64,000 nt of DNA from Arcobacteraceae bacterium (GCA_963662945.1 OY759974.1:256001-320000), one strand, 5' to 3'; counted from the stretch's first letter, positions 11,672-40,565 are shown. Numbers and translations are program-made. Notes: generated by a model from the letters alone, not told the origin.

Positions 11672-11890
11672 TAAAAAAGGTAAATACCATTTATATATAT
11701 TATTATTACTCTATGTAAATGAAAAACCCAAAAGGTTACAAAAATGCTATGAAGCATTTTTTCCACCATTTGATAAATTTGTTATGGAATAATGAATTGA
11801 TAAGTGTTTTGAACTTTATCTTTATATGTCTTAAATTGATTATTGTATCTTAATAAGAACAATTGAAAATCTTGAAAAGTTTCAACTACA
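11672..11890 (-). repeat. Dispersed structured module, inverted variant B1
   Basis: Largely identical to 30494-30712; contains the AAAAATGCT-n4-AGCATTTTT palindrome. Confidence 0.85.
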
Positions 11891-11917
11891 TTTTATAAGT
11901 TGAGTTGAATTGATTTA

Positions 11918-12187
11918 TTATTCTAAATGAGAATATGAATTTAATATTCTAACAATTTCTTCATCATTATTATTATCAGCAATTCTATTTTGAATTTTAT
12001 GAGAAGTATGAACTGGTTTTTTATCATCTTTTTCCCATTTTTTTATTTGTTCTTTAATTTCTGCTCCAAGAAGCATTCCCCCAACAAAATGAACTACTCC
12101 AACAACTGCATATTTAGCTAATTCATTAGCTTGTATATTGGTTGATAATATTAATATTACTAATATTGATGTTGTAATCTTTTTCAT
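11918..12187 (-). CDS. Small secreted/membrane protein
   Basis: Signal peptide followed by a glycine-rich hydrophobic segment. Confidence 0.6.
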   Translation of the reverse strand: MKKITTSILVILILSTNIQANELAKYAVVGVVHFVGGMLLGAEIKEQIKKWEKDDKKPVHTSHKIQNRIADNNNDEEIVRILNSYSHLE

Positions 12188-12401
12188 AAATATCCTTCTT
12201 ATTGATATTATAGTTTATTTTAGTATTTTTTTCAATATTGAACTTAATATTTATTATGATTTTAGTGTTATTTGATTAATTTTATAAGGTTTTTCATATG
12301 AAAAAACAAATAAAGGTGTAATTACTGGTTTTAATATTATTTTGAGTTTTAGAGCATATTTAGTTTTTCAATAATAACTTATATTTTCTATCAATATTAA
12401 T

Positions 12402-12648
12402 TAAAGTTGTTGAAACTTTTCAAGATTTTTAATTATCCTTGTGAAAAAACTTTATAGTAATTGAGTATCTGAATAAAGTTGTTGGGATAAGCCAATCTAT
12501 TCTATTATCCTTGTGAAGAGAGTATTGCCAAATACTTAAATATTATCATAGAGATATGAAATATTTTTCTGATCAAAAAAACAAACCAAATAATCCTCAA
12601 TGGTGGAAAAAATGCTTCATAGCATTTTTGTAACCTTTGGTTTGTTCT
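12402..12648 (+). repeat. Dispersed structured module A1
   Basis: Near-identical to 16410-16658 and 40378-40565; diverged copy at 28065-28250. Confidence 0.92.
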
Positions 12649-12674
12649 TAATAATAAAAGTATAGACTTCAAAA

Positions 12675-13657
12675 TAATAAACTGAAATATTCAACAAATA
12701 AAATTTAATCAAAATTCAATCAGATTTTCTTTTATAAAAAAATTTTACAACTTTTGGAAACTGGAAAATGCAACAAATGAAATTTCTATGCCTTTTATAT
12801 ACTATTTATTGGGTATGTTCAAAATTATTGCCTTCTCTATCTCAACAAAAGGAAAGTAGTTAAAAAAAAGGTGGTAAAAATATCCAACTTAAATATGAAA
12901 AGGTGGTAAAAATGTCCAACTTAAATTTAACTTAAACTTAATTTATTCAATTTTCTTATGTTTAATAAACTGAAATATTCAACAAATAAAATTTAATCAA
13001 AATTCAATCAGATTTTCTTTTATAAAAAAATTTTACAACTTTTGGAAACTGGAAAATGCAACAAATGAAATTTCTATGCCTTTTATATACTATTTATTGG
13101 GTATGTTCAAAATTATTGCCTTCTCTATCTCAACAAAAGGAAAGTAGTTAAAAAAAAGGTGGTAAAAATATCCAACTTAAATATGAAAAGGTGGTAAAAA
13201 TGTCCAACTTAAATTTAACTTAAACTTAATTTATTCAATTTTCTTATGTTTAATAAACTGAAATATTCAACAAATAAAATTTAATCAAAATTCAATCAGA
13301 TTTTCTTTTATAAAAAAATTTTACAACTTTTGGAAACTGGAAAATGCAACAAATGAAATTTCTATGCCTTTTATATACTATTTATTGGGTATGTTCAAAA
13401 TTATTGCCTTCTCTATCTCAACAAAAGGAAAGTAGTTAAAAAAAAGGTGGTAAAAATATCCAACTTAAATATGAAAAGGTGGTAAAAATGTCCAACTTAA
13501 ATTTAACTTAAACTTAATTTATTCAATTTTCTTATGTTTAATAAACTGAAATATTCAACAAATAAAATTTAATCAAAATTCAATCAGATTTTCTTTTATA
13601 AAAAAATTTTACAACTTTTGGAAACTGGAAAATGCAACAAATGAAATTTCTATGCCT
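12675..13657 (+). repeat. Tandem array, 288-bp unit x ~3.4, each unit with two AAAAGGTGGTAAAAATRTCCAACTTAAAT iteron-like boxes
   Basis: Units start at 12675, 12963, 13251 and 13539 and appear identical. Confidence 0.95.
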
Positions 13658-13741
13658 GCTTTCATAAACATATATTCATTGGCTTTTTTTAAAATCATCA
13701 CCTGAACCTTAACAAAAGCTCTCACAAATGATTGGATTTTT

Positions 13742-13829
13742 AAAAATGTGTAACTTTGGGTGAGTCCAAATATCAAAAATGTGTAACTTTGGGTGAGTGC
13801 TAATATTGCCCTAAATATCAAAAATGTGT
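13742..13829 (+). promoter_or_regulatory. Iteron-like direct repeats AAAAATGTGTAACTTTGGGTGAGT (x2 plus partial), putative replication origin
   Basis: Copies at 13742 and 13775 (33-bp spacing) upstream of the Rep gene. Confidence 0.7.
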
Positions 13830-14020
13830 CAAAAAAAGTGAAAGTTCTTGCTGTTTAGTGTAAATACTTAAATTTAACTTAAACTTAAAGAAATTTTAAA
13901 TTTTATTAAAAAAGTGGTAAAAATAATTGAAATTTACCTCCAAATAATATATATTATAAGAAATATACTTATAACAAAGTAGATATTAAAAAAATATAAA
14001 TAAATTTTAAAGGAAAAAAA

Positions 14021-15067
14021 TTGAATAATAAATTTACACATAGTATGAATTGTTTGCTTCCACAAGAACAAAATAGATTTAATAAACCAAATGTATTAAT
14101 TAAGTCACAATTATCACAAGCAATAACTCATAAAGAATCTGAAGTATTTTCAGTATTAGTTAGGATGTTGTTAATAACTGAAAGAAGTAATTTTGATTTA
14201 GTAACTGATTATGATTTAAATTGTGATTATGCAGATATAAATAATTTTATGTCTGATAATCATACATCAAAAGATATTAGAAAAATTCTTGAAAAATTAT
14301 TAAATACAACAATCAGATTTAATTATATACATAATGGTAAATGTAGAATTAGAAATACAAAAATAATTACAGCATATGAAGATAGTAAAGGGAGATATGA
14401 TAAAGCAAGTATCTCATTTGATCATAAACTAATAAAAGTATTAATTGAAAAGGTATATCCATATACAAAATTAAATGAAATTGAGCAATATAAATTATCT
14501 AATATATATTCAACAACTTTTTATGAGTATTTTAAATTAGCTCTTGGTAATAAATTGAGCAATATAAAGTATTTTTCAGAATCAGAATTAAGAAAAAAGT
14601 TTTTTTTAGAAAATAAATACAAAAATATTAAAGAGTTTAATAAGTTTGTAATTAAAAAAGCTTTAACTGAAATAAATAGTCACACATCATTAAATATTGA
14701 ATATAAAGTTGAAAAAGATGAAATATCAAATGAAAGAATATATAAATTTAAAATTGAAGATATTCCTATGACTGAAAATATTTTAAATATTTCAGAATTT
14801 AAAAATCTGATCAAAAATATGTCTAAAAAAAATAGAGAAATTATTTATAAATATAGAAATAATAACTATTATCTTGGTGAACAATTAGACTTTTATGCTA
14901 CAGGAAAAATACTTTGGATTATTGAAAATAGTGATAAAACAACTTCAAAAATTATTGCTACTAAAATTTGGAATAATCTTTATAAAGAATATTTACAAAA
15001 TAGTGAGCAGTTTGCTGAAAAATATTATGATTTATCATATAAAGAATTATTAGAGGATGGAAAATAA
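14021..15067 (+). CDS. Rep_3 (RepB-type) plasmid replication initiator
   Basis: 'KPNVLIKS', 'YTKLN....KLSNIYSTTFYEY' and 'NKYKNIKEFNKFVIKKALTEINSHTSLNI' follow the Rep_3 pattern. Confidence 0.85.
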   Translation: MNNKFTHSMNCLLPQEQNRFNKPNVLIKSQLSQAITHKESEVFSVLVRMLLITERSNFDLVTDYDLNCDYADINNFMSDNHTSKDIRKILEKLLNTTIRFNYIHNGKCRIRNTKIITAYEDSKGRYDKASISFDHKLIKVLIEKVYPYTKLNEIEQYKLSNIYSTTFYEYFKLALGNKLSNIKYFSESELRKKFFLENKYKNIKEFNKFVIKKALTEINSHTSLNIEYKVEKDEISNERIYKFKIEDIPMTENILNISEFKNLIKNMSKKNREIIYKYRNNNYYLGEQLDFYATGKILWIIENSDKTTSKIIATKIWNNLYKEYLQNSEQFAEKYYDLSYKELLEDGK

Positions 15068-15069
15068 TT

Positions 15070-15495
15070 ATGACTTTACATCAATACAAAACAATACTTC
15101 ATAATGAATTTTCTGATCAAATTAATGCAGAAGTTTTTTTTGAATTATTAAGAATACAAGAATCATCTTTTGAATTAAGTTTATTAATTCCATTTTTAGA
15201 GATACCTAATAAATATAATATTTACTCATCATATAAAGATATTCAAGATTGTACATCTTTGAATATGTCATTTGAAAATTTTGAAAAAATAATTATTAAA
15301 TTATTAAATAAAAAATTCAAATTTCAATATATAAGTTCTGATGGTACAGAAATAATAACAAGGAACATTAATTTTGTAACTAAATATGAAAAAGAAATGA
15401 TAAAAGGTGAAGAAATACTAAAAATTTACTTTGATCCAAAATTTCTTGAAATATATATGAATATGATATTTATTCCTTTGAAAAAATCTGAATAA
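15070..15495 (+). CDS. Rep_3 N-terminal winged-helix-like paralog
   Basis: Resembles the first half of the upstream Rep ('EVF..LLR', 'KLLN..F.F.YI', 'I.FD.K'). Confidence 0.5.
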   Translation: MTLHQYKTILHNEFSDQINAEVFFELLRIQESSFELSLLIPFLEIPNKYNIYSSYKDIQDCTSLNMSFENFEKIIIKLLNKKFKFQYISSDGTEIITRNINFVTKYEKEMIKGEEILKIYFDPKFLEIYMNMIFIPLKKSE

Positions 15496-15675
15496 ATTCA
15501 ATTATTAATCCTATTTTAATCCCCCTCACCTTCTCTTTTTGGGAAGGTTTTTTTATGCCTAACAAATTTTCAAATTTCTTCTAAAAACCCCTTTAAAATG
15601 GCTCTGAGAAGTGTTTTTTTATTGATTCTGAATTTTTCTATATATAACAAAGTATAACACTTAAAGGACTATACT

Positions 15676-16305
15676 ATGTTAAAGCTAACAGAAACTAAAA
15701 TCATAAATAATAAAAATCTAACTGGTGAATTTGAAAAATTTCAAAATTCTGAAACATATAAACATACTGAAAGAGTTGCTTATCACTCTCATATCATAGC
15801 AAAAAAATTAGGAATGACTGAAAAAGAATCTCAAAGAATTTTTGATATTGCTCCTTATCATGATTTTGGTAAAATGGTAATTGATGAAAATATTCTTTAT
15901 AAAGAATCTCAATTAACAGATGAAGAATTTAATATCATAAAATCTCATGCAACTCTTGGTTATGAAATTTTAAAAGATAATAATCATGACTTTTTTGATG
16001 AATGTGCTATTGTTGCTCACCAACATCATGAAAAATGGAATGGTACTGGTTATCCTAATAATTTAAAAGGTGAAGATATTCATATCTCTTCAAGAATTGT
16101 TGCTGTTGCAGATGTTCTTGATGCTTTAATCTCTAAAAGAGCTTATAAAAAAGCTTGGTCTCCTAAAGAAATTATTTTACATTTTGAAAAAGAAAAAAAT
16201 GTTTCTTTTGATCCTATTGTTGCTAAAACTGTTATTGAAAACTTCTCTGAATTTAATCACCAAAATCAAAAATTACACCATTTACAAACTTTAACAAATA
16301 TATAA
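15676..16305 (+). CDS. Stand-alone HD-GYP phosphodiesterase
   Basis: Motifs HTERVA, HDFGK, HHEKWNGTGYP and ADVLDAL..R.YK. Confidence 0.93.
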   Translation: MLKLTETKIINNKNLTGEFEKFQNSETYKHTERVAYHSHIIAKKLGMTEKESQRIFDIAPYHDFGKMVIDENILYKESQLTDEEFNIIKSHATLGYEILKDNNHDFFDECAIVAHQHHEKWNGTGYPNNLKGEDIHISSRIVAVADVLDALISKRAYKKAWSPKEIILHFEKEKNVSFDPIVAKTVIENFSEFNHQNQKLHHLQTLTNI

Positions 16306-16409
16306 TTTTCTGATAATTAGCTTTAATTACAACCTTCTCTTAACAGGGAAGGTTTTTTTATGTCTAATTTTTCCTGATTAAATAAATCTAATCTATTATC
16401 AAATCTAAA

Positions 16410-16658
16410 TAAAGTTATTGAAACTTTTCAAGCTCTTTCATTATCCTTGTGAAAAAAACTTTATAGTAATTGAGTATCTGAATAAAGTTGTTGAAACAAG
16501 CCAAGATTTTTAATTATCCTTGTGAAGAGAGTATTGCCAAATACTTAAATATTATCATAGAGATATGAAATATTTTTCTGATCAAAAAAAACAAACCAAA
16601 TAATCCTCAATGGTGGAAAAAATGCTTCATAGCATTTTTGTAACCTTTGGTTTGTTCT
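16410..16658 (+). repeat. Dispersed structured module A2
   Basis: Matches A1 and A4. Confidence 0.92.
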
Positions 16659-16750
16659 CTTTAAAAATAGTTTTTTAATATTTTTTATTAATTCAATACT
16701 ATAACCCAATAGATCAATTGATCAAATAAAAATACAAAGGAAAACTGGTT

Positions 16751-16885
16751 ATGAATACAACATTAAAAATATATGGAACATTAGATTTTACTAAGGATAA
16801 TATATTTGAAAAGGATTCTTTTCATTTATTAGATTTTATGCCAATATTTATTGAAGATACTGAAATAATGAGAGGTATAAAATAA
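16751..16885 (+). CDS. 44-aa small protein (not in ORF track)
   Basis: TATAAC at 16700, AAAGGA RBS, and TAATG coupling to the next ORF. Confidence 0.5.
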   Translation: MNTTLKIYGTLDFTKDNIFEKDSFHLLDFMPIFIEDTEIMRGIK

Positions 16886-17277
16886 TGGATAAACTGATAA
16901 CTGCAATATTTCTTTTAAGTCCATCTTTATTACTTGTTATTTATTTACAAATGCAACAAACTCAAAAACTTGATAATCAAGTTGATAATACAAAAATTGA
17001 ATTCAAAAAAGATCAACATAAATTTGATGAAGATTTTTATTTTGAGAAAAGTCAATTTTCAGATAATAAAGAAGCAAAAGAATATTATCTTAATAAATCA
17101 AAAGATGCTCAATCTAAATTATTAAAAATTGAAGAAGCTAAGAAAAAAGCTGAACTTGAAGCAAAAAAACTTAAAGAAAAAAGTCAAAAAACTTTTGAAA
17201 AATTAGAAAAATCTATCAATGATTTAGATAGTAAAAAAATGGATAGTGAATTTGATAATGATAATTTTGATTTTTAA
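16885..17277 (+). CDS. Membrane-anchored coiled-coil protein with acidic tail
   Basis: N-terminal TM; ends DSEFDNDNFDF. Confidence 0.65.
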   Translation: MDKLITAIFLLSPSLLLVIYLQMQQTQKLDNQVDNTKIEFKKDQHKFDEDFYFEKSQFSDNKEAKEYYLNKSKDAQSKLLKIEEAKKKAELEAKKLKEKSQKTFEKLEKSINDLDSKKMDSEFDNDNFDF

Positions 17278-17362
17278 CAATTATATTAAAAAAAAACTAT
17301 AACAAGGTGGTGATAGATTAAATTCTATCCCAACAAATTTTAAAAATAAAAGGAAACAAAAT

Positions 17363-17773
17363 ATGTTTGGACAAAATAAATATACAAATGAATCAACTGA
17401 AACAAAAGAAGTTGAAGTAAAACAGGAAGTTAAACAAACTGTTGAAGAAAAAGTTGCTGAAGCTAAAAAAGTTGAAAATAAATCAACTAAAAATGAAACA
17501 AGATTAGAATCTTTACAAAGAAAATTGAAAGATGCTGAAGCTAAAAGAAATGATGATGAAAAAATCATCAAAGAGGATGCTAAATCAAAAATTGATGTAG
17601 TGAAAGAAAGATTTTATAAAGAAAAAGAAAGATTAGAAAAACTGATCAAAGTTGAAACTGATAAATCTGATAAAAAAACTGGTAATGAGTTAAGAGATAT
17701 TGCTGATAAATTAGGTCTTTCAGTTGATGAATTATTAGCTAATCTTGAAAAGAAAGCTGAAAAAGCAAACTAA
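17363..17773 (+). CDS. Charged coiled-coil hypothetical protein
   Basis: 136 aa with RBS and TATAAC at 17298. Confidence 0.65.
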   Translation: MFGQNKYTNESTETKEVEVKQEVKQTVEEKVAEAKKVENKSTKNETRLESLQRKLKDAEAKRNDDEKIIKEDAKSKIDVVKERFYKEKERLEKLIKVETDKSDKKTGNELRDIADKLGLSVDELLANLEKKAEKAN

Positions 17774-17802
17774 GAAGTTTTACTTCTTAGGAAAGGATAA
17801 AT

Positions 17803-18705
17803 ATGAAAAATCTAATAATAAGTTTTTGTTTATTATTTAGTGTTAATGTGTATGCCCTTGATATGACAAGTGGTAATACTGTTGATGAAAATTTTAAAGA
17901 AGATAAACAAGAAAGTGATAAAAGAAATAGAAATCTTTCTTCTTCTGAAGAAAAATCAAAAACAAGAACAACTTCAGATGAAATATCTAATGCAAATTCT
18001 ACTGATTTAAAACTAATTGGACACCATGATGCACTAATTGTTCTTATGGCACTTGAAAAAGCAAATATTGAACCTTTCAAATCTTGTGAAATATTAACAA
18101 AACCAAGATTATTAGATGATTTTGGATTGGGTTGTAAAAGTTGGAATGGAATGATTAATTCAAATAGATGTTCTGCATTAGAAGAAGCAGGAAAAGCAAA
18201 TTTAACAGTTGAAAATCTGATTGATACAACACTTGTTGATAATCCAATAGATTTTAGAGAATTTACAGCTTGTGTTGGTTTATATGGTGCATTAATTGCT
18301 CAATCATTAAAAGAAGGAACTTTTGATGTTCAATTAAAAGATGAAGAATTAAAAGATCAATATTTATCACTTAATGATTCAATTGAATTTGATGAATGTA
18401 GATTAGATGGATCAGTATCAAATATTACTTGTGGTGAAACTACAATTAAAATAGGAGCAAATCCATCACTTACTTATGGTTCTATCCCTTTATATAGTGA
18501 TAGTGTTTATTATGGTTATTCATTAAGTATTAATGATAATAAAAGTAAGAAAAATTCTGAAACATTTAGTAAATCTAAATCTAAAAAAAGAAGTGAAGCA
18601 AATTCTCTTGCTAAAACTATTACTAATAATAAAACTTTAGGTATTTCAACTGCTAAAAATAGTGGTGTAAATATTGGTTTGAGTAAATTCTTACCTAATA
18701 AATAA
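17803..18705 (+). CDS. Secreted Cys-containing hypothetical protein
   Basis: Signal peptide ending VYA, several Cys, Ser/Lys-rich termini. Confidence 0.65.
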   Translation: MKNLIISFCLLFSVNVYALDMTSGNTVDENFKEDKQESDKRNRNLSSSEEKSKTRTTSDEISNANSTDLKLIGHHDALIVLMALEKANIEPFKSCEILTKPRLLDDFGLGCKSWNGMINSNRCSALEEAGKANLTVENLIDTTLVDNPIDFREFTACVGLYGALIAQSLKEGTFDVQLKDEELKDQYLSLNDSIEFDECRLDGSVSNITCGETTIKIGANPSLTYGSIPLYSDSVYYGYSLSINDNKSKKNSETFSKSKSKKRSEANSLAKTITNNKTLGISTAKNSGVNIGLSKFLPNK

Positions 18706-18794
18706 TCCTCACTTTTATAGTGGGGATCTTCCCCCTCACTTCAATATTTTATATTACAAAACAAGTTGAAACAAAACCAACCAAAGGAACAACT

Positions 18795-18905
18795 ATGACT
18801 AAACAAGATTTATTAAAAGAAAAAGAAATTGAATTGTATAAAATTCAAAAACAAATAGATTTGCTTTTTAAAAAACTAAAATTTGAATTAAAAAAAATTT
18901 ATTAA
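18795..18905 (+). CDS. 36-aa basic peptide upstream of the relaxase
   Basis: AAAGGA RBS, then MTKQDLLKEKE... Confidence 0.4.
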   Translation: MTKQDLLKEKEIELYKIQKQIDLLFKKLKFELKKIY

Positions 18906-18920
18906 TTAAAGGAAAAAATT

Positions 18921-27518: not shown

Positions 27519-28066
27519 TGTAATTTCCTTATAAAATGATTTTTCCTTTTAGAAGATTTTTTTAAGAGGGCTTGGAGATTTTTGTAATAACTTTTAATTA
27601 AGTTAAAACAATCCTCACCCTTTTAATCAACTTTCAGGATTTTTCCCCTTAGTTAGTTTCTTCAATCAGGCTTTGAAAATTAAATTGTCATTTTCATAAC
27701 TTAGAATAAAATACAAATTAGTATAATTTTATATTTAGTGTAAGTTTGCAATATGTAAGATTTGAATTGGAAAAGTTTGAAGAAACTCAATAAGATGAAA
27801 AATAAAAGTTGATCAATAAAGGTGATTGGTTTTATTAATGATATGTAATAAAAAGTTATTACCAAAATTTTAGTTTTTTGTGTTTGAATGTAATGAAAAC
27901 TTATATTATTTGATCAAAGTTTAAATGCTAAGTATTTATAATTTATGTTCTTGATCAAATACCTTGAAATTTTTTTGTTTCTTTTTTAAAAGAAATATTC
28001 ATATTTAAAAATATGAATAATGTTTTAATATATAAAAAAGGTAAATACCATTTATATATATTATTA
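27516..28066. promoter_or_regulatory. ~540-bp upstream repeat 1 with a long imperfect hairpin (27578-27868); Frpo/ssi-like single-stranded promoter candidate
   Basis: Nested inverted repeats; homologous to 29990-30527 with compensatory changes. Confidence 0.75.
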
Positions 28067-28250
28067 ATTAAGTATCTGAATAAAGTTGTTGAAACAAGTC
28101 AAGATTTTTAATTATCCTTGTGAAGAGAGTATTGCCAAATACTTAAATATTATCATAGAGATATGAAATATTTTTCTGATCAAAAAAACCATAACAAATA
28201 ATTCAAATGATGAAAAAAATACTTCATAGTATTTTTGTAATCTTTTGTTT
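28065..28250 (+). repeat. Dispersed structured module A3 (diverged)
   Basis: Palindrome variant AAAAATACT-TCAT-AGTATTTTT. Confidence 0.85.
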
Positions 28251-28327
28251 AATTACCTTTCAAATAATAATGGATTTTTTCAAGGTCTTTATTGACTTTA
28301 TCCATTGCACCTAATAGTGCTTCATTT

Positions 28328-29357: not shown

Positions 29358-29367
29358 AATAAGTCTT

Positions 29368-29544: not shown

Positions 29545-29584
29545 AATTTACTCCTTTTAGATATTTTTATAAATAAAATCCCTT

Positions 29585-29992
29585 TTAAAAAGGAACTTTA
29601 TCTGCACTTTTTTCTGCTTCTATTTGTTCATTAATAATTTGAGATAACATCTTTTCTTGAACATTATCTTCAACTAATTGTTGTCTGTTATATACTGTGT
29701 AATATCTTACTGTTTCATCTTTCTTAGTAAATAATTGAACTCCATATTGTTTATCATCTTTGAATGTTAAATCCATTTCATCCATATCTTTTTGAGTTAG
29801 CCAAGTATTATCTGAATAGTTTTCTTTTTTAGCTCTCAAATCTAATAATTTTAAATTTAAACCTTTATATTCATTACCTTTAATACTTGTATGTACTTCT
29901 ATGTTACTATTGTGATTAGATACACTTATAATTGCTCTTTTGTAAATATCATTGATATTAAAAGTCTTTGCTGTTTTAGTTGTTGTTGTCAT
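29585..29992 (-). CDS. ArdC N-terminal (ssDNA-binding)-like protein with SSB-like tail
   Basis: 'G..YKGLN...L......Y....WLT' and 'YYTVYNRQQ'; ends ADKVPF; no HExxH domain. Confidence 0.75.
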   Translation of the reverse strand: MTTTTKTAKTFNINDIYKRAIISVSNHNSNIEVHTSIKGNEYKGLNLKLLDLRAKKENYSDNTWLTQKDMDEMDLTFKDDKQYGVQLFTKKDETVRYYTVYNRQQLVEDNVQEKMLSQIINEQIEAEKSADKVPF

Positions 29993-30527
29993 TGTAATTT
30001 CCTTTTAAAAATGTTTTACCTTTTTTGAAGATTTTAAGAGGGTTTTGGATGATTTGTTTAAACTTTTAATTAAGTCAAAACATATCCCCTCTTTTTCTTA
30101 CTTCAAGGTTTTACCTCTTCAGTTAGTTTCAATCAGGCTTTGAAAATTAAATAGTCAATTTCATAACTTAGAATAAAATATAAATTAGAATAATTTTATT
30201 TATAGTATAAGTTTGTAAGGTGTAAGATTTGAATTGGAAAAGTTTGAAACTCACTTAGAGTTAAAATGTAGTAAGAATAAAAGAGATATATGTTTTCTTA
30301 ATGGTATGTAATAAAAAGTTTAAATTAATCACTGTTTATTGTGTTTGAATGTAATGAAAACTTATATTATTTGATCAAAGTTTAAATGCTAAGTATTTAT
30401 AATTTATGTTCTTGATAAAATACCTTGAAATTTTTTGTTTCTTTTACAAAAGAAATATTCATATTTAAAAAATATGAATAATGTTTTAATATATAAAAAA
30501 GGTAAATACCATTTATATATATTATTA
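29990..30527. promoter_or_regulatory. ~540-bp upstream repeat 2 with a long imperfect hairpin (30050-30331)
   Basis: Homolog of 27516-28066. Confidence 0.75.
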
Positions 30528-30712
30528 TTACTCTATGTAAATGAAAAACACAAAAGGTTACAAAAATGCTATGAAGCATTTTTTCCACCATTTGATAAAT
30601 TTGTTATGGAATAATGAATTGATAAGTGTTTTGAACTTTATCTTTATATTCTTTCAACTGTAAAGTTTTTTTCATAAGGATAATTAAAGAGCTTGAAAAG
30701 TTTCAATAACTT
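30494..30712 (-). repeat. Dispersed structured module, inverted variant B2
   Basis: Matches B1; its distal part is the reverse complement of the start of A2. Confidence 0.85.
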
Positions 30713-30824
30713 CTTTGAAAGTTCAATATTATTCTTTATAGTTTTGTCTTTTTCTCCTAATCTTTTTATATAACATAATATGTTGATCAAATCAACAAAT
30801 TTAAAAAATAAAAGGATAAAAGTT

Positions 30825-32223: not shown

Positions 32224-34122
32224 TTACAATCCTAATTCATCTAATTTTGATTTTGGCTGCTCAACTGGTGGAATTTTATTTGAAGTTTTTTCTTCAATTT
32301 TTTCTTGTTGATCATTATTTTGTTCAACAACTTGTCCACCACCATTTGAAGTTGGTTTTGTATCTTCAGATTTTTTATTTTGATTTTTAATTAGATTTGA
32401 AATATCTAAATCATTTCTTGGAATAAATCCTTTTGCAATTTGAGGATAATTATCTTCATCAGTAAATTTCTTTTCAATTAAAGCCCAATCATAAGAACCA
32501 TTTAGATAATAATATGTATTCTTTTTTAATTGTCCTAATTCAGAAGGTAGAATTGCTTTTTCAACTTTTTCACTTGTTGTATAACTTGATCCTTCTCTTG
32601 ATGCTTGATTTTCTGCACCTGTTGAAGTTGTCATTGAAGTTGATTGAACTTTTCCATCACCAATGATGTTTGCACAAAATTCTCTTGTATCAGGATCACC
32701 CAATTTAAAAATCAATTTACTTGAACAAGAACCTACAATTGCAAGTGCTAATTCTTTTCCATATATACTTGTCATTTTTCCAAAATCTTGAATACCTAAC
32801 CAAAATGCACCACCTAAACTTCTTGCTAAAAGAACACCTTGAATAATTGAAGGAATCTTTTTTAACATTCCTAATTCATCTAAAATAAAATAAACTCTTC
32901 TTGTATCACTATCTGAAAAAGATAATAATGTTTTAATTATTGAATCAACAAATACTGCAATTCTTGTTGAGTTTAATTCATCATTCTTAACATCATTTAC
33001 TAAGAAGATTGTTGAGTGTCCATCTTCACATTGTAACCATTCTTCTAAATCTAATTCTTCCCCATCATTAGAATCAGGTAATGATGTAAAGAACCCAACT
33101 TTTGATCTAAAATTACTCATAAAGATACCTGCTTGACTTTCAGAAGATGTTAAATGTCCATAAGCAATTTCTGCCCCTTGAACACCTTCAAGTTTATTAG
33201 CAAGTTGAGATGGACTTAATTTGATAAGTTGTTTAACTACTATATTTGTTTTCTTATCATTTACAATACAATATATTAAAATACCTTTTAATATATCCCT
33301 TGCTGTATCAGTCCATATTGTATCTTTTTCATCAGGGTTTCTTGTAATAATTGATGCAATCATTGAATCAATATCATCAATTAATTTGATCATAGAAAAT
33401 ATATTAAAATTCAAACTTCTTGAATCTGAAAAGTTAAATATATAATCTGTTTCAGGATTATAAAATCTTTCAATCCAATCAAATTTTACTGTGTGAACTA
33501 AATATCTTCCATAAGATCTTTTTTTTCTTAATTCTCTATAAAATTGATTAAGTGCAACTGTTTTTCCTGAACCTGCTGATCCAAATAATATTGCATGAGA
33601 AGTTTCAGTTTCCTGATCAACTTTAATATTATTTGTAATAGTAACACCTTCAATTTTATCTTTCTTTTGAAGTTCTTCAAGTTGTTTTTCTGTTAGAGTT
33701 TTTGATCCTTTAAGATGTTGATCTTCTAAAACTTTATTTGCAAATTTATTAGCAATTATTTTTTTAAGATAAATTGTTGTTGCAAATATTACAAAAAACA
33801 ATGAAAGAAATATTGTTAAAAGAAGATCAATATTATCCATAATTTTTGGTAAGAAATGTTCATATGCTCCTCTTGTTGAAACTAATTCACCTCTTAACAT
33901 CATATTATCTTGAAATGTAAATGTTGATTTTAAAACTGCTTCAAAATATAAAAGATTGATCTTCTCTGTTGGAAAAAAAGCACCAACAATATATAAAACT
34001 AATATTGCTCCAACTATTCCTGCAATTGCAGGATATAGTAAATGTTTTTGCCCTCTTGATATTGAATTATCAACAACATCAAATTGAGCAACTGTACTAA
34101 ATTTTTTTTGATTTTTTATCAT
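32224..34122 (-). CDS. Type IV coupling protein (TrwB/TraD family)
   Basis: Two N-terminal TMs, Walker A GSAGSGKT, Walker B FILDELG and 'RSLGG...LGIQD'. Confidence 0.93.
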   Translation of the reverse strand: MIKNQKKFSTVAQFDVVDNSISRGQKHLLYPAIAGIVGAILVLYIVGAFFPTEKINLLYFEAVLKSTFTFQDNMMLRGELVSTRGAYEHFLPKIMDNIDLLLTIFLSLFFVIFATTIYLKKIIANKFANKVLEDQHLKGSKTLTEKQLEELQKKDKIEGVTITNNIKVDQETETSHAILFGSAGSGKTVALNQFYRELRKKRSYGRYLVHTVKFDWIERFYNPETDYIFNFSDSRSLNFNIFSMIKLIDDIDSMIASIITRNPDEKDTIWTDTARDILKGILIYCIVNDKKTNIVVKQLIKLSPSQLANKLEGVQGAEIAYGHLTSSESQAGIFMSNFRSKVGFFTSLPDSNDGEELDLEEWLQCEDGHSTIFLVNDVKNDELNSTRIAVFVDSIIKTLLSFSDSDTRRVYFILDELGMLKKIPSIIQGVLLARSLGGAFWLGIQDFGKMTSIYGKELALAIVGSCSSKLIFKLGDPDTREFCANIIGDGKVQSTSMTTSTGAENQASREGSSYTTSEKVEKAILPSELGQLKKNTYYYLNGSYDWALIEKKFTDEDNYPQIAKGFIPRNDLDISNLIKNQNKKSEDTKPTSNGGGQVVEQNNDQQEKIEEKTSNKIPPVEQPKSKLDELGL

Positions 34123-34739: not shown

Positions 34740-35420
34740 ATTTTTACTTTTTGTGTTTTTTAATAAAATTTTGTTGTAAACATTGATTTAATCCACAAAT
34801 AGGAAGCTAATAAGGGGTAAAAAAGTGAAATGTTTACACTTTTATAGTGTAAACACTAAAATCATCAAATATAGGAATTATGGGGTTTTTAGAGAATTTT
34901 GATAATCATCAAAATATAGCTAATTATTAGGAATTAGTGGCTTTACTTGTGTAAACAAGGTACAAACCCCCTGTTGGGAGTCTTGTACCTTCTCTAAATT
35001 AGAAAATCATTTATGATTTTCAGCATCTTGAAAAGATGCCATATATTCTCAAAATGAGAATGACAAACTCTCAACATATTCTCAAAATAAGAATGTTTAA
35101 CCTATCTAATTCCTATAAAACAAATAAAAAAAAGATTTATAAATCTGATTAAAACTTTTTTATTACAAAATATATTCATTGAAAGTGTTTTAAAATTTAA
35201 TCATAAGAGAGACAAGCCAATAGTGAAAAACTTTTTAAAAAAAACTTTTGAATAATTGGAAATATTTTATTATTAAACTCAATACTTTCAATTAATATCA
35301 TTTTCATAATATATTTGAAATTCAAATATGTAATATTTAGAATGAATATAGTTTTGGTTAGTTTAAATAGTTGATTAGTTTGTTTGAATAAGGGGTTCAT
35401 CCCCTGAAAAGAAACCTTTT
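34740..35420. promoter_or_regulatory. Putative oriT / single-strand origin region
   Basis: ORF-free region upstream of RHH-T4CP with 4 TGTAAAC boxes and a cluster of inverted repeats at 34928-35115. Confidence 0.5.
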
Positions 35421-35524: not shown

Positions 35525-36235
35525 CTAAATTTGCATCATTGCTTTGAATGTATTATTTGATATTTGTGAATATTTATTTTCAGCATTATCACTTTTTAAA
35601 TATGATAAAAATTTATCAAGTGGTATTGTTGTTAATTTATTTGAATTTTTACTTTTCAAATGAACTTGAATAATATTTTTACTTTCAGTAATTATAAATA
35701 ATGGAATATCTGTAGGTTTAGTTTTTACTATTTTTCTTAATGAATATTTTGTTGTTTTCTTTAATCCATAAATAAAACTAACTGGTTTCACTTGAATACC
35801 AATTTTTATATCTCCATCAATTAAAAAATCTATACCTTTTTGACAATCTTCATCAGGATTTGAATGTGATATTGTATATCCTGTTGGTAAATGAAAATTT
35901 AATTCATCAAATACTTTCTGTTCTCTTTTAATCCCTATGAATGATTTGTTAATGAATGTTTCTGTTACATATTCTTTTAATGTGTTGTAATTGATACTCT
36001 TTTCAAATTGTTGCCATTTATTTGTTCTTTCTTCAATAAATGATGATAAGTCTTTTTTGATTTTTTTCATTAAATATTTATTATAAAACTCAATAAATAT
36101 TTCTTTTGTAATTTGATTTAGATTATATTCTTTTAATATTTCTTGAGCAACTTCCATTACATAAAATCCACAATCTATTGGTGAATTGATTTTATATTTG
36201 TTAAATGATTGGTTTATTTGATATGAACTTGTCAT
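35525..36235 (-). CDS. MjaI-like PD-(D/E)XK restriction endonuclease
   Basis: 'SFIGIKREQKV', 'DED..KGIDFLI' and 'IGIQVKP.SF' resemble the RE_MjaI family. Confidence 0.6.
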   Translation of the reverse strand: MTSSYQINQSFNKYKINSPIDCGFYVMEVAQEILKEYNLNQITKEIFIEFYNKYLMKKIKKDLSSFIEERTNKWQQFEKSINYNTLKEYVTETFINKSFIGIKREQKVFDELNFHLPTGYTISHSNPDEDCQKGIDFLIDGDIKIGIQVKPVSFIYGLKKTTKYSLRKIVKTKPTDIPLFIITESKNIIQVHLKSKNSNKLTTIPLDKFLSYLKSDNAENKYSQISNNTFKAMMQI

Positions 36236-36380
36236 AATCTTGTTTCCTTGTGTTTTAAAATTTGTTATACACTGTTATAAGACAAACTTTTCAGAAAAAA
36301 TATTTTTAATACTTTTTATTAAATGATTTTGATTAGGAAAAATTAGGCATAAAAAAACCTCTCAAAAGAGAGGTTATGAA

Positions 36381-37529: not shown

Positions 37530-37684
37530 AATCTTGTTTCCTTGTGTTTTTAAAATTTTTAATATTGAGTTAATCCTTATTAACTTCTTACTTATAATAT
37601 ATAATTTTTTATATTATTTTTCAAGTATTTAATAGAAAATATTAAAGAATTTTGAAATTTCTTTTAGGGAAAAAATATGAGTGA

Positions 37685-39406
37685 TTAGAAGTTAGTTTGA
37701 GTGAAATATTTTTGATCAGGAATAAAAGGGATTATATCATTTTCATTAAATTGATAATCTAAATCAAATATGTTTAAATCTTTTTTGAGTTTAAACTTTG
37801 GATATATATTATTTTCATATCTATAAACATTAAATAGTTCAACACCATTTTTTGATCTTGTAATAATTCTTCTTGGGGTTGATGTATCAATATCAATATC
37901 TTGTAAATGATAATAGAAAAATTCTATCTGATCAAGTTTTAATAATTTCTTTTCTAATATAGTATCATCATTATAATACTCTTGAAATAATTTATCTTCT
38001 AAATATTTCATAAATACTTCTATATCTTGTTCTTTTGATTTCATATATTCATATGATGCTTCTTTATCCATATTAAAAATTGATAATAAGATATATTTGT
38101 TATTGATTATATATTTATCTAAATATTTAATCTCTAAAACTTTTTCACTTCTTTTATGAGGATTATCAACATATTCATCATATTTACTTCTATTTTTTTT
38201 ATTATCAATTTTATTTTTATAAAAATGTTTAATTGCTATTGACATACTTTTATAATTATGATGTTTTTTAAATTTGATAATTTCAAAATAATTAGTAAAA
38301 ATATCTATAAGAGGAAAAAGAAAAAACATACTTCTTTCTAATTTTGTAGTAATAACTTTTAATTGATGATATGTTGATAATTTATCAGCAATATTTGTAA
38401 GAGCATCTTTTAATTCTTCAATTGTTTCTTTTGAATGATATGTTTGAAGTAAATATTCAGGATCATTCATTTTTTCTTGATATTCAGATTTCTCTTTTAA
38501 TTTTATATTTTGTTCTTCTAATGAAAGTGGATTACCAAAATCATCAAGGAAATAATATTCAGGTGATTTTTTTTCTGAATCAAAATGATAATATTTATTA
38601 CCATTATCACTTTCAATATAATCTGTTTCATAATCAATTGAATAAAGATTTTCTAAATTAGTATAAAGTTGTCTATATGGAGCATAATATTTTCTTTGCC
38701 ATTTTTTTAAATGATCATTAGTAAAAATATTTATTTCTTTAATATCTGAAATAATCATATCAAGTTCATTTGATGCAATACTAATATTTTTAATATGTTG
38801 ATTGTTAATTTTAGTTCTTTGAAAATTTGAAGTAAATTCTTTATATTTTTCAATTCTATTTTCTATAATATTTAATTTATTGAGAATCATTGTATATATT
38901 TTTTTTGCATTAAACTCACTATTAATTATATTTGTTATTTCATTAATACAATAAGTTTTAGAATTTGAAAAAAAAGTATTATGATTTTCTTTATCATATT
39001 TTTTAATTAATTCTTTTAGTAGTGGAATATATGATGCTTTGATATTTGATAAGGTATTTATTTGATCACATATAAATTGTGTATTTTTTTTATTTTTAAA
39101 AGCAATAGAACTAATATATAGAATAATACTATTATTTGAAATTACATAATTATTATATTTATCTTCAATATTTTCTTTCATTTCAATACAATGATTTCCA
39201 TTATCTTTATTCAAATATAGAATTATATATTCAAATGTTTTATTTCTATAAAGGATATATTTTTGATCAGATTTAGAAACTTCTTTAAGGTTTTTGATCT
39301 CTTGTATTTTCTCAATATGATTTATCATTGTATTTATTACATCTGAAAAGTTTTTCAATGATGTTAATTCTTGTTTTGTCTTAATATAAGGTGTTCTTTT
39401 AGCCAT
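37685..39406 (-). CDS. Large hypothetical protein
   Basis: 573-aa open frame with no recognised motif. Confidence 0.65.
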   Translation of the reverse strand: MAKRTPYIKTKQELTSLKNFSDVINTMINHIEKIQEIKNLKEVSKSDQKYILYRNKTFEYIILYLNKDNGNHCIEMKENIEDKYNNYVISNNSIILYISSIAFKNKKNTQFICDQINTLSNIKASYIPLLKELIKKYDKENHNTFFSNSKTYCINEITNIINSEFNAKKIYTMILNKLNIIENRIEKYKEFTSNFQRTKINNQHIKNISIASNELDMIISDIKEINIFTNDHLKKWQRKYYAPYRQLYTNLENLYSIDYETDYIESDNGNKYYHFDSEKKSPEYYFLDDFGNPLSLEEQNIKLKEKSEYQEKMNDPEYLLQTYHSKETIEELKDALTNIADKLSTYHQLKVITTKLERSMFFLFPLIDIFTNYFEIIKFKKHHNYKSMSIAIKHFYKNKIDNKKNRSKYDEYVDNPHKRSEKVLEIKYLDKYIINNKYILLSIFNMDKEASYEYMKSKEQDIEVFMKYLEDKLFQEYYNDDTILEKKLLKLDQIEFFYYHLQDIDIDTSTPRRIITRSKNGVELFNVYRYENNIYPKFKLKKDLNIFDLDYQFNENDIIPFIPDQKYFTQTNF

Positions 39407-39618
39407 AAAGATATTTTCTCATAATTTACATAATAGCACCCTGACATATAGAATTTAATTAAATTAGTATCAGTAATAACTGTTAAAGTTGTATATGAAA
39501 AAAAAGTTTATAACTTTATTTTTTTGTTATTTAAAAACTTATTGTTAATAAGTTAAAGGTGAGTAAATATTTACTCAACAAATATATGCACATTATTATG
39601 TGATAAAAGGAAAAAATT

Positions 39619-40287
39619 ATGAAAAAAATAATAAAAACAAAAGAAGAATTAAGAGATTTAATTTTAAGTGATGAACTTAATAATAATACATTGAATGACT
39701 ATGATTATAGTTCTATTACTGATATGAGTTTTATGTTTGCAGGTTGTAAAAATTTAACTACTATTCCAAAACTTGACACATCAAATGTAATTAATATGAG
39801 TTATATGTTTGCAAATTGTCATAGTTTAACAGAGATTCCAAAATTTGACACATCAAATGTCTCTTATATGGGTTTTATGTTTAAAGGTTGTAAAAATTTA
39901 ACTACTATCCCACAATTTGACACATCAAATGTAATTAATATGGGTTTTATGTTTTACAATTGTGAAAGTTTAACTACTATTCCAAAATTTGACACATCAA
40001 ATGTTGAATATATGAGTTATATGTTTTCAGATTGTGAAAGTTTAACAACTATCCCACAATTTGACACATCAAATGTCTTTGATATGAGTTTTATGTTTTC
40101 AGGTTGTAAAAGTTTAACAACTATCCCAAAACTTGACACATCAAATGTTGAAGATATGAGTTTTATGTTTTCAGATTGTGAAAGTTTAACTACTATCCCA
40201 CAATTTGACACATCAAATGTTGAAGATATGAGGTATATGTTTGAAGGTTGTCTTAGTTTGAAATCTATCCCACAATTTGACAATTAA
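39619..40287 (+). CDS. BspA/DUF285-type repeat protein
   Basis: ~8 tandem 23-aa repeats 'MSFMFSGCKSLTTIPKLDTSNV' (69-bp DNA period); no signal peptide. Confidence 0.9.
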   Translation: MKKIIKTKEELRDLILSDELNNNTLNDYDYSSITDMSFMFAGCKNLTTIPKLDTSNVINMSYMFANCHSLTEIPKFDTSNVSYMGFMFKGCKNLTTIPQFDTSNVINMGFMFYNCESLTTIPKFDTSNVEYMSYMFSDCESLTTIPQFDTSNVFDMSFMFSGCKSLTTIPKLDTSNVEDMSFMFSDCESLTTIPQFDTSNVEDMRYMFEGCLSLKSIPQFDN

Positions 40288-40377
40288 GGAAAAAATTTGA
40301 ATTAAAATTTGGGAAGATGAATGGTGTAGAGATATGGGTGAAAGTGAAGAATGTAATTATGGATAACAGTATTACAA

Positions 40378-40565
40378 TAATTGAGTATCTGAATAAAGTT
40401 GTTGGGATAAGCCAATCTATTCTATTATCCTTGTGAAGAGAGTATTGCCAAATACTTAAATATTATCATAGAGATATGAAATATTTTTCTGATCAAAAAA
40501 ACAAACCAAATAATCCTCAATGGTGGAAAAAATGCTTCATAGCATTTTTGTAACCTTTGGTTTGT
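40378..40565 (+). repeat. Dispersed structured module A4
   Basis: Appears identical to 12458-12645. Confidence 0.92.

What the first reader, a model, noticed from the sequence alone, without database searches (positions are those of the whole stretch)
11672..40565. Six-copy structured non-coding module with compensatory base changes
Seen: a 190-250-bp intergenic module at 12402, 16410, 28065 and 40378 (+), with mosaic inverted versions at 11672 and 30494. It holds hairpins AGTATT-gcca-AATACT, TCATA-gaga-TATGA and a long stem AACAAACCAAA..GGT..AAAAATGCT-tcat-AGCATTTTT..ACC-TTTGGTTTGTT. The diverged copy at 28215 shows paired changes (ATGCT/AGCAT to ATACT/AGTAT and GGT/ACC to GAT/ATC), which means selection on pairing or symmetry. 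Inference: a multicopy ncRNA, an ssDNA priming signal, or an operator/partition site. Inverted pairs could also invert the 16.6-30.5 kb relaxase-ard segment.
Basis: partly seen in the sequence, partly recalled or inferred. Interest (0 to 1): 0.75.

Follow-up and report, generated by a model that had tools for sequence, protein, structure and literature searches.

The report
Repeated promoter-hairpin cassette in mobile element
A roughly 200-base non-coding unit with a conserved hairpin is repeated six times inside one integrated, mobilizable plasmid-like element, most likely as a reused promoter-and-leader cassette at the head of its operons; it is real and tidy, but of a broadly known kind and its function is still inferred.

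Summary
Six mosaic copies exist at the stated places, and they are the only ones in the 2.50-Mb genome. All lie inside a ~44-kb integrated mobilizable element, window ~6.09-50.38 kb. It carries a Tyr integrase, a RepE-like Rep with iterons, a MOBF relaxase, a T4CP, ArdA and ArdC-N. It is not a chromosome-wide MITE/REP.

All six copies share two things. One is a promoter-like P unit (TTG..., fixed 18-nt spacer, TATCCT; 8 units). The other is a 44-nt hairpin about 95-100 nt downstream with a U-rich tail. In the hairpin 96 of 96 cells pair and 3 of 16 pairs are compensated. The conservative chance estimate is P about 0.0015.

No homologue was found anywhere and no RNA run is listed, so function is inferred.

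Best reading (about 0.4): a reused promoter plus structured RNA leader/attenuator cassette heading the element's operons. Rivals: stand-alone small RNAs, single-strand DNA priming signals, functionless recombination tracts.

In passing: two co-varying ~290-nt hairpins upstream of ardA and ardC, candidates for Frpo-like single-strand promoters.

The parts
11729..11897 (-). Copy 1 (type B). Degenerate alpha P unit 11845-11897 (TTGAAA-18-TGTTCT), B body 11773-11844, core hairpin 11729-11772. It points toward the pentapeptide-repeat operon (11544 and leftwards).
   Evidence: (D9, I4, I8-I10)
12398..12650 (+). Copy 2 (type A). Alpha P 12404-12449, gamma P 12476-12522, hairpin H1 12520-12537, hairpin H2 12538-12566, outer stem 12580-12590/12636-12646, core hairpin 12597-12640. 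It lies between the divergent orf89 (11918-12187, -) and the iteron/rep region.
16406..16660 (+). Copy 3 (type A). Alpha P 16412-16458, beta P 16485-16531, H1 16530-16545, H2 16547-16575, core hairpin 16607-16650. It follows the HD-gene terminator (16331-16354) and precedes the relaxase operon (16751-22970).
28077..28262 (+). Copy 4 (diverged). Beta P 28083-28129, H1 28128-28143, H2 28145-28173, core hairpin 28204-28247 carrying the compensated changes. It is convergent with the end of the ardC operon (28328). Its opposite-strand TTGGCA-16-GATAAT (28138 to 28111) points toward ardA.
30551..30718 (-). Copy 6 (type B). Alpha P 30667-30712 (TTGAAA-18-TATCCT), B body 30595-30666, core hairpin 30551-30594. 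It points toward the ardC-N operon.
40390..40570 (+). Copy 5 (type A). Gamma P 40396-40442, H1 40441-40456, H2 40458-40486, core hairpin 40517-40560. It lies between the DUF285 gene (ends 40287) and the N6-methylase gene (40663).
11664..11706 (+). G motif AAAAGGTAAATACCATTTATATATATTA, one of four; the others are at 28025-28067, 30486-30528 and 40575-40617. All four are on the + strand whatever the module's orientation. With the type-B 3' flank it reads on the - strand as TTTACA-N16-18-TATA(T/A)A, pointing toward the pentapeptide and ardC operons.
   Evidence: (D10, D15); hexamers read
27578..27868 (+). Long imperfect hairpin (~105 bp) in the ardA leader. It is a neighbour of copy 4, not part of the module.
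   Evidence: (I19)
30050..30331 (+). Paralogous long hairpin in the ardC-N leader. It is a neighbour of copy 6. Its arms co-vary with those of 27578-27868.
   Evidence: (I23)

Best explanation
Each module is a small transcription-start cassette that the element has reused six times.

Proposed parts and action:
- One or two promoter/operator units (P: conserved AAAGTTRTTG box, fixed 18-nt spacer, conserved ATTATCCTTGTGAA box, readable as -35 TTGAAA / -10 TATCCT) start an RNA on the P strand.
- The first ~125-135 nt of that RNA are structured. Type A has two small hairpins and an A-rich linker. Type B has a different body.
- The RNA segment ends in a conserved 44-nt hairpin (about -15 kcal/mol as RNA) followed by a U-rich stretch.
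- That hairpin acts in the RNA as a leader element or partial terminator (attenuator). The cassettes thereby put the replication, relaxase, anti-restriction (ardC), pentapeptide and methylase operons under one common control, probably with an element-encoded repressor on the alpha units' TTGAAAC-TTTTCAA dyad.

Shown: the copies, their confinement to the element, the bipartite conservation of P, and the pairing constraint on the hairpin.
Inferred: that P fires, which strand is read, that the hairpin works in RNA, and any regulator.
For: 1. In 5 of 6 copies the P-to-hairpin direction equals that of the next operon: rep side, relaxase operon, methylase, ardC operon, pentapeptide operon.
2. The eight P units align without any internal gap. 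They have two conserved boxes and a variable spacer of constant length: invariant TTG, CAA and ATT.T.CTT.T.AA. That is the pattern of a bipartite recognition site.
3. After the strong HD-gene terminator at 16331-16354, the only + strand promoter-like matches before the first relaxase-operon ORF (16751) are the two P units.
4. The host does use canonical promoters. TTGACA sits 17 nt before TATAAT 16 times, against 0-3 at other spacings.
5. Hairpin: 96 of 96 cells paired, 3 of 16 pairs changed on both sides, none broken, slid controls 42-56% paired. P(at least 3 compensated pairs and none broken) = 0.0015 under a same-substitution null.
6. As RNA, the P-strand hairpin is 2.8 kcal/mol more stable than its complement in all six copies. 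U-rich tails follow it in all six.
7. The element reuses other transcription parts in their functional orientation: a terminator cassette three times and a terminator-promoter-RBS cassette twice.
8. Known conjugative elements do place several establishment or maintenance operons under shared operators: p576 Reg576 (PMC6294495, abstract and sections 22, 26 read) and R388 ArdK/StbA/KorA (PMC3937220, passages read).
Against: 1. Promoter-like matches are no commoner in these regions than in shuffles: 56 vs 60.9, 26 vs 30.6, 12 vs 11.8. P scores only 9 of 12, with an 18-nt spacer and a weak -10. The gamma units (TTGGGA) are not called at all. The unit in copy 1 has lost the A of the -10.
2. The opposite strand carries a better match (TTGGCA-16-GATAAT, 10 of 12) in all four type-A copies.
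3. Copy 4 points against the neighbouring genes. Copy 2 is followed by 1.4 kb of iterons, not by a gene.
4. Type-B copies and copy 5 have further promoter-like sites between the hairpin and the gene, so the module could be self-contained.
5. The copies are 88-100% identical, and S2 is identical in four copies. Gene conversion rather than selection may explain the conservation. Compensated changes in a palindrome can also arise by templated mutation without selection.
6. There is no expression data and no homologue.
Confidence: 0.4

Rival explanations
1. The modules are a family of stand-alone small RNA genes, four of type A and two of type B. P is the promoter, the core hairpin with its U-rich tail is a real terminator, and the ~125-135-nt RNAs act in trans or bind a protein.
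For: - The promoter-body-hairpin-U tail layout is present in all six copies.
- Hairpin energy is about -15 kcal/mol.
- Type-B copies are followed by a separate promoter-like site, TTTACA-N16-18-TATAAA (read).
- Copies 2 and 4 have no gene to lead into.
- Loop GAGA is a GNRA-type tetraloop (sequence).
Against: - Duplex search of both RNA types against 45 translation-start regions of the element gave best energies of -23.5 and -21.9 kcal/mol. These are no better than shuffled RNAs (means -23.9 and -22.8).
- The terminator scan calls none of the cores, although it does not allow internal loops.
- The relaxase operon would be left without a recognisable promoter.
- No Rfam family matches.
Confidence: 0.2
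2. The modules act as single-stranded DNA. They would be hairpin signals on the transferred or lagging strand that recruit primase or RNA polymerase (ssi/sso-type priming signals) during establishment after transfer.
For: - The modules are among the most structured 300-nt windows of the element as ssDNA: ranks 4-8 of 596, just behind the oriT candidate and the two long hairpins.
- Three consecutive hairpins recall G4-type ssi (recalled, not tested).
- The module sits next to the two Frpo-like hairpins.
- An earlier scan note describes a repeated hairpin module of ICE cassettes read as an ssDNA promoter (a lead only).
Against: - Copies lie on both strands (4 on +, 2 on -), whereas only one strand is transferred.
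- Whole-module folds give a chain of short local hairpins. There is no long stem that would rebuild a duplex -35/-10.
- Two of the three hairpins are missing from two copies.
- No primase gene was recognised.
Confidence: 0.15
3. The copies have no function of their own. They would be homogenised recombination or gene-conversion tracts, or remnants of a small non-autonomous insertion, kept similar by concerted evolution. The symmetric changes in the palindrome would then come from hairpin-templated mutation.
For: - The structure is mosaic with sharp block boundaries, and S2 is 100% identical in four copies while the flanks differ.
- The module lies in either orientation next to the same G motif and leader at ardA and ardC.
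- There is no homologue outside the element.
Against: - No terminal inverted repeats or target duplications are evident in the aligned copy ends.
- Six repeats of >88% identity in both orientations invite deletion and inversion, yet they persist.
- Placement is non-random, at operon boundaries.
- Zero of 16 stem pairs are broken despite 8 variable columns within the hairpin.
Confidence: 0.12
4. The core palindrome is a double-stranded operator for dimers of the RepE-like initiator (iteron-like half-sites), used for titration, handcuffing or repression.
For: - The left arm GGTGGAAAAAATG matches the iteron GGTGGTAAAAATG at 12 of 13 positions.
- The pattern GGTGGWAAAAAT occurs 16 times in the window against 1.5 expected.
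- 11 of the 15 genome hits of the 13-mer lie in the element.
- The rep promoter itself carries an inverted iteron-like pair at 13913.
Against: - In an unbiased genome-wide scan with 16-24-nt iteron words, no core is among the best-scoring sites listed (24-nt word: 8 hits at 4 or fewer mismatches, none a core; 16-nt word: 710 hits at 4 or fewer mismatches). By my own alignment a core would score 13 of 16, a score 78 sites share.
- About 1% of random 61-nt genome windows have some 12-of-13 iteron match (190 of 20000).
- The diverged copy changed the GGT and ATG positions in both arms. That fits pairing, not a fixed protein contact.
Confidence: 0.07

Closest known systems
Reg576-controlled establishment-gene promoters of Bacillus plasmid p576 (PMC6294495; abstract and sections 22 and 26 read)
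   Same: - Several operons of a conjugative element, including an ardC gene, are headed by promoter regions that share short conserved motifs.
- Stem-loop-forming repeats lie downstream of PardC576.
- All the controlled genes sit in one orientation.
   Different: - There the shared part is a 7-nt motif (TTATCCC) in dual copies bound by an RHH repressor. Here whole 200-280-bp blocks are shared at 88-100% identity, including a transcribed structured part.
- The single TTATCC inside our P unit is not a dual motif.
- No repressor has been identified here.
- The host lineage is unrelated.
R388 (IncW) transcriptional network: ArdK, StbA and KorA repressing sets of promoters (PMC3937220, passages read; PMC9723621, search listing only)
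   Same: It is a MOBF-relaxase element in which maintenance, anti-restriction and transfer operons share operators and are repressed in negative feedback.
   Different: - The R388 promoters share short repeats, not long near-identical cassettes with a hairpin.
- The proteins here are at most 28% identical to any PLSDB relaxase or T4CP.
Reused ('putative mobile') promoters in prokaryotes (PMC3575422; abstract and opening text read)
   Same: Highly similar upstream regions sit in front of unrelated genes within one genome, sometimes carrying RNA motifs.
   Different: Here all copies are confined to one 44-kb element, occur in both orientations, and include a hairpin with compensated changes.
Frpo/ssi single-stranded DNA promoters of F-like and IncI plasmids (PMC11541004, passages read; Masai and Arai 1997, recalled from the reference list only)
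   Same: Repeated, structured, non-coding sequences in a conjugative element next to anti-restriction genes. The two ~290-nt hairpins beside copies 4 and 6 fit this picture in size, position and gene orientation.
   Different: - The six-copy module itself folds into short local hairpins, not one long promoter-mimicking stem, and it lies on both strands.
- Neither the module nor the long hairpins have sequence similarity to anything in PLSDB.

Membership tests
MITE / REP-type dispersed chromosomal repeat | Copies scattered through the host chromosome | tested here: not met
   All 6 BLAST matches in the 2,497,315-bp genome lie in the window at the six sites. Sub-motif scans find exact copies only in the element.
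MITE / REP-type dispersed chromosomal repeat | Terminal inverted repeats and target-site duplications at the copy ends | tested here: not met
   The aligned copy ends show no shared termini or flanking duplications. The ends are ragged and mosaic.
Any curated RNA family (Rfam 15) | Covariance-model match at gathering score | tested here: not met
   0 matches in the 64-kb window on both strands.
Sigma-70-type promoter | -35 and -10 hexamers at 16-18 nt spacing | tested here: inconclusive
   TTGAAA-18-TATCCT (9 of 12) is called in 5 of 8 P units. The boxes are conserved with a fixed spacer. However, the hit density equals that of shuffles.
Sigma-70-type promoter | Mapped transcription start | not testable with these tools
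   No RNA run is listed for this DNA.
Intrinsic (Rho-independent) terminator | G+C-rich uninterrupted stem followed directly by a T run | tested here: not met
   The terminator scan calls the element's real terminators (16331, 15528, 11220) but none of the cores. The core has internal loops, 4-6 G-C pairs out of 16 in five copies and 3 in copy 4, and a T-rich but interrupted tail.
Frpo/ssi single-strand promoter | One long (~300 nt) imperfect hairpin of the transferred strand that rebuilds a duplex promoter | tested here: not met
   Whole-module ssDNA folds are chains of hairpins of 30 nt or less. The neighbouring 27578-27868 and 30050-30331 do meet this feature.
Frpo/ssi single-strand promoter | Sequence similarity to known Frpo/ssi | tested here: not met
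   blastn of the module and of the ardA leader against 72,556 plasmids, which include F-like plasmids, gave no match. The reference Frpo list (Supplementary Table 2 of PMC11541004) was not opened.
Rep3/RepE-type iteron or operator | Specific match to the element's own iteron | tested here: inconclusive
   There is a 12-of-13 match to the iteron core. It is not distinguishable from background in unbiased scans.
Partition (centromere) site | Adjacent or element-encoded ParA/ParB-type partner | tested here: not met
   There are no ParA/ParB/ParR Pfam hits among the 62 ORFs scanned in the window.

The most novel reading that the evidence does not exclude
The six modules and the two co-varying 290-nt hairpins together form a set of single-strand-active establishment signals. 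They would be a new, sequence-unrelated class of ssDNA promoter or priming sites in a previously undescribed lineage of integrative mobilizable element. The short conserved hairpin would be the recognition element read on the incoming strand.
Probability: 0.15. Interest if true: 0.7.

Novelty: new member of a known kind. Interest (0 to 1): 0.45.

Why it matters
If the cassette reading is right, the element wires replication, transfer, anti-restriction and methylation operons to one shared start-and-leader unit. That would be a compact example of how mobile elements coordinate establishment genes by copying whole regulatory parts rather than short operators.

The element itself is an isolated lineage. 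Its relaxase, coupling protein and Rep are at most 22-33% identical to anything in the plasmid and genome collections searched. Its control logic is therefore uncharted.

The two long hairpins before ardA and ardC would extend single-strand promoter biology beyond the enterobacterial Frpo family.

Tried and rejected
- Genetic code 4: rejected. The long ORFs contain no TGA.
- Conserved small peptide in the module (25-aa MKYFSD... ORF): rejected. A one-base A-run difference in copy 3 and substitutions in copy 4 break the frame.
- Homologue hunting, all blank:
  - PLSDB blastn.
  - 60 relatives: only hits of 65 nt or less at E of 7.7e-5 or weaker.
  - 183 other genomes of the family: one 52-nt hit at E 7.3e-6.
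  - Exact-pattern scans of genome contigs (0 hits), viral contigs (0) and metagenome contigs (3 hits whose flanks share nothing with the module).
  - Relatives of the relaxase (33% identity or less in 6 of 183 family genomes; none by the search for related loci) and of Rep (0 of 183; one 22% hit in PLSDB).
- Expression: no RNA holder is listed.
- Inversion or deletion between copies: the runs are Logan unitigs that stop at repeats. The module-related joints 12645-28032 and 16655-30493 carry the 40378 copy's own 3' flank. I read 25335/30528 as cross-mapping too, by comparison. The other listed joints were not traced. No verdict.
- oriT reading of the module: rejected. The sequence after the hairpin is not conserved between copies, and a much better oriT candidate lies at 34780-35100 upstream of the RHH-like gene and T4CP.
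- Rep-operator reading: not supported statistically.
- Trans-acting sRNA targets: none above the shuffled null.
- Strand of action of the long hairpins: both strands fold about equally well, so no verdict.
- A first fold scan timed out and was rerun at a coarser step.

Full report
SETTING

The window is 25% G+C and uses the standard code; the long ORFs have no TGA. It is bases 256001-320000 of a single-contig 2,497,315-bp chromosome with 28.9% G+C.

Pfam, NCBIfam and PHROG scans show host genes at both ends: Lon, a rhomboid protease, glyS, hemB. Between them lies a foreign block with these genes:
- Tyr integrase, 6241-7509.
- Two pentapeptide-repeat proteins.
- A RepE/Rep3-like initiator, 14021-15067.
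- An HD-domain protein.
- A TrwC/MOBF relaxase-helicase, 18921-22970.
- ArdA, 27006-27518.
- An ArdC-N protein, 29585-29992.
- A TrwB-type coupling protein, 32224-34122, preceded by a weak RHH-like ORF.
- An MjaI-like nuclease, a DUF285 protein, a methylase and a type I R-M system.

No VirB4 was seen. A direct repeat of about 45 nt (18 nt of it exact) occurs at 6085 and 50334, and the rhomboid 3' end is duplicated. This bounds the element at about 6.09-50.38 kb. It is therefore an integrated, mobilizable, plasmid-like element. Its relaxase, T4CP and Rep are at most 28%, 25% and 22% identical to anything in PLSDB. The relaxase is at most 33% identical to any relative in 183 genomes of the same family, and Rep has no match at all there.

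THE OBSERVATION

They are the only copies in the genome. Every sub-motif is confined to the element.

The copies are mosaics:
- Copies 2 (12402) and 3 (16410) have two tandem P units 73 nt apart. Then comes S2, which holds the hairpins AGTATTgccaAATACT and AAATATTaTCATAgagaTATGAaATATTT. Then an A-rich linker and the long stem.
- Copies 4 (28065) and 5 (40378) have one P unit, S2 and the core.
- The inverted copies 1 (11672) and 6 (30494) have one P unit, a different ~75-nt body, and the core.

S2 is 100% identical in its four copies (by eye from the alignment; one search confirms the two hairpin motifs as exact in all four). Copies 1 and 6 are 96% identical to each other.

Only two things are common to all six: the P unit, and a 44-nt hairpin about 95-100 nt downstream of it.

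THE HAIRPIN

I aligned the six cores and counted a structure of 16 pairs:
- 96 of 96 cells form standard pairs.
- 3 pairs change on both sides. C-G/A-U separates copies 2, 3, 5 from copies 1, 4, 6. Two G-C to A-U changes are in copy 4.
- One pair shows C-G/U-G, and none is broken.
- Sliding the partner by 1-3 columns gives only 42-56% pairing and no compensated pair.
- 1 of 500 column shuffles reaches the observed covariation score.

I then placed the same eight substitutions at random on same-base positions of the hairpin. At least three compensated pairs with no broken pair arose in 0.15% of 300,000 trials; with free placement the figure was 0.005%.

Caveats:
- This is a small sample, six sequences and two or three events.
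- In a palindrome, such changes can also be produced by hairpin-templated mutation.

As RNA the P-strand hairpin is -10.8 to -15.4 kcal/mol. It is 2.8 kcal/mol more stable than its complement in every copy. It is followed by a U-rich stretch in all six.

THE P UNIT

The eight P units align without an internal gap. They show a conserved left box (AAAGTTRTTG), a variable spacer of constant length, and a conserved right box (ATTATCCTTGTGAA). The units read as TTGAAA-18-TATCCT, scored 9 of 12 in 5 of 8 units.

There are three variants:
- Alpha carries the dyad TTGAAAC-TTTTCAA. It occurs at 12404, 16412, 30712(-) and, degenerate, 11892(-).
- Beta occurs at 16485 and 28083.
- Gamma (TTGGGA...) occurs at 12476 and 40396.

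The host does use canonical promoters: TTGACA sits 17 nt upstream of TATAAT 16 times, against 0-3 at other spacings.

Against this, promoter-like matches are not enriched over shuffles in any of the three regions scanned. The opposite strand also has a better match in the four type-A copies (TTGGCA-16-GATAAT, 10 of 12).

PLACEMENT

In 5 of 6 copies the direction P to hairpin is that of the next operon:
- Copy 1 leads to the pentapeptide genes.
- Copy 2 leads to the iteron/rep side.
- Copy 3 leads to the relaxase operon.
- Copy 5 leads to the methylase.
- Copy 6 leads to the ardC operon.
- Copy 4 is the exception. It faces the end of the ardC operon, and its opposite-strand match faces ardA.

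After the HD-gene terminator, the P units are the only + strand promoter-like sites before the relaxase operon.

The element reuses other transcription parts in the correct orientation. A terminator cassette occurs three times (16330 +, 24290 -, 36360 -). A terminator-promoter-RBS cassette occurs twice. This makes a 'standard regulatory part' reading natural.

ALTERNATIVES TESTED

- No Rfam family matches.
- No conserved peptide: the 25-aa ORF is broken in copies 3 and 4.
- The core's left arm resembles the Rep iteron at 12 of 13 positions. However, about 1% of random 61-nt genome windows do as well, and in an unbiased scan with longer iteron words no core is among the best sites listed.
- As single-stranded DNA, the modules are among the most structured windows of the element: ranks 4-8 of 596. 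They fold as chains of short hairpins rather than a promoter-mimicking stem, and they lie on both strands.
- Putative RNAs of both types show no complementarity to 45 start regions beyond shuffled controls.
- The module is not the oriT. A far better candidate, the single most structured window, lies at 34780-35100 upstream of the RHH-like gene and T4CP.
- Inversion between copies could not be assessed, because only unitig-type contigs of the same organism are available. The module-related joints I traced trace to repeat cross-mapping, and the remaining listed joints were not traced.

COMPARATIVE DATA

There are none. The following were all blank:
- PLSDB.
- 60 relatives.
- 183 family genomes.
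- Exact-pattern scans of the genome, viral and metagenome collections. The three metagenome hits have unrelated flanks.
- Protein-guided searches.

These searches find only close DNA relatives or exact 22-26-mers, so distant homologues are not excluded.

VERDICT ON MECHANISM

The best-supported reading (about 0.4) is a reused promoter/operator plus structured-leader cassette. Its conserved hairpin acts in the RNA as an attenuator or leader element. This places the element's main operons under common control.

The logic is analogous to the Reg576 regulon of p576 (PMC6294495; abstract, sections 22 and 26 read). It is also analogous to the ArdK/StbA/KorA network of R388 (PMC3937220, passages read), and to promoter reuse in general (PMC3575422, abstract and opening read).

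Rivals: a family of self-contained small RNAs (0.2), ssDNA priming signals (0.15), functionless conversion tracts (0.12), and a Rep operator (0.07). The steps from 'conserved bipartite box' to 'promoter', and from 'paired hairpin' to 'RNA attenuator', are inference.

BESIDE THE FINDING

The leaders of ardA and ardC each fold into a ~290-nt imperfect hairpin, at 27578-27868 and 30050-30331. The surrounding regions have z -6.1 and -6.7.
- Between the two copies the apex is 109 of 119 identical, but the basal arms are only 63 of 85 and 59 of 87 identical.
- Even so, each native pair of basal arms folds at -30.8 and -31.5 kcal/mol.
- Arm-swapped chimeras give -13.4 and -14.8 kcal/mol, about the same as shuffled arms at -12. 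The arms have therefore co-varied.
- These are the only two copies in the genome. They have no similarity to any PLSDB plasmid.

Their size, their position before anti-restriction genes, and the gene orientation all fit Frpo-type single-strand promoters as described in PMC11541004 (passages read). The orientation point is this: if the oriT is read by analogy with R388 (recalled), the + strand would be both the transferred strand and the template.

Two cautions apply. I could not pin down -35/-10 boxes with confidence; TTGTCA-16-TAAAAT at 27685 and TAGTCA-16-TAAAAT at 30152 are the best candidates. On that same reading the two genes would enter late rather than first.

I treat it as a lead only.

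Noticed in passing
27578-27868 and 30050-30331: Two paralogous ~290-nt imperfect hairpins lie directly upstream of ardA and of the ArdC-N gene. Their arms have diverged (68-74% identity) but co-vary: native stems fold at about -31 kcal/mol, arm-swapped chimeras at about -14. They are candidate Frpo-like single-strand promoters with no sequence similarity to known plasmids.
   Followed up: partly
34780-35100: This is the most structured 300-nt window of the element as ssDNA. It has several perfect inverted repeats (for example GTGTTTACAC...GTGTAAACAC and AAGGTACAA...TTGTACCTT) and direct repeats CATATTCTCAAAATRAGAATG. It lies upstream of a weak RHH-like ORF and the T4CP, and is the likely oriT.
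   Followed up: partly
12675-13657: A 288-bp unit is repeated 3.4 times at 100% identity upstream of the RepE-like gene. Each unit carries two 32-nt iterons (AAAAGGTGGTAAAAATRTCCAACTTAAAT...). An inverted iteron-like pair at 13913-13945 overlaps the rep promoter TTGAAA-17-TATATT.
   Followed up: partly
6085-6130 and 50334-50380; 5990-6046 and 50480-50540: There are att-like direct repeats at both ends of the element, and a duplicated 3' end of the rhomboid protease gene. The element appears to have integrated into the end of that gene and to supply a replacement end.
   Followed up: partly
16330-16392 (+), 24228-24290 (-), 36318-36360 (-); 24142-24270 and 36232-36360: A terminator cassette is reused three times, each downstream of a gene on the right strand. 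Two of the copies have stems that differ but remain complementary. A terminator-promoter-RBS cassette is reused twice at 95% identity.
   Followed up: partly
17340, 25281, 26407, 37079, 40626: The same ribosome-binding stretch (AATTAAAATTTAAAGGAAACA..ATATG) recurs before at least five unrelated genes of the element.
   Followed up: no
11664, 28025, 30486, 40575: The G motif AAAAGGTAAATACCATTTATATATATTA is always on the + strand, whatever the orientation of the adjacent module. With only four copies this is not significant, and it remains unexplained.
   Followed up: partly
9949-10353 and 11236-11544 (-): Two short pentapeptide-repeat proteins lie downstream of copy 1. They are possible DNA mimics or anti-defence proteins.
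   Followed up: no
16039-16117: Contigs of the same organism show a second sequence variant over part of the HD-domain gene. This probably reflects a paralogue elsewhere in the genome cross-mapping.
   Followed up: no
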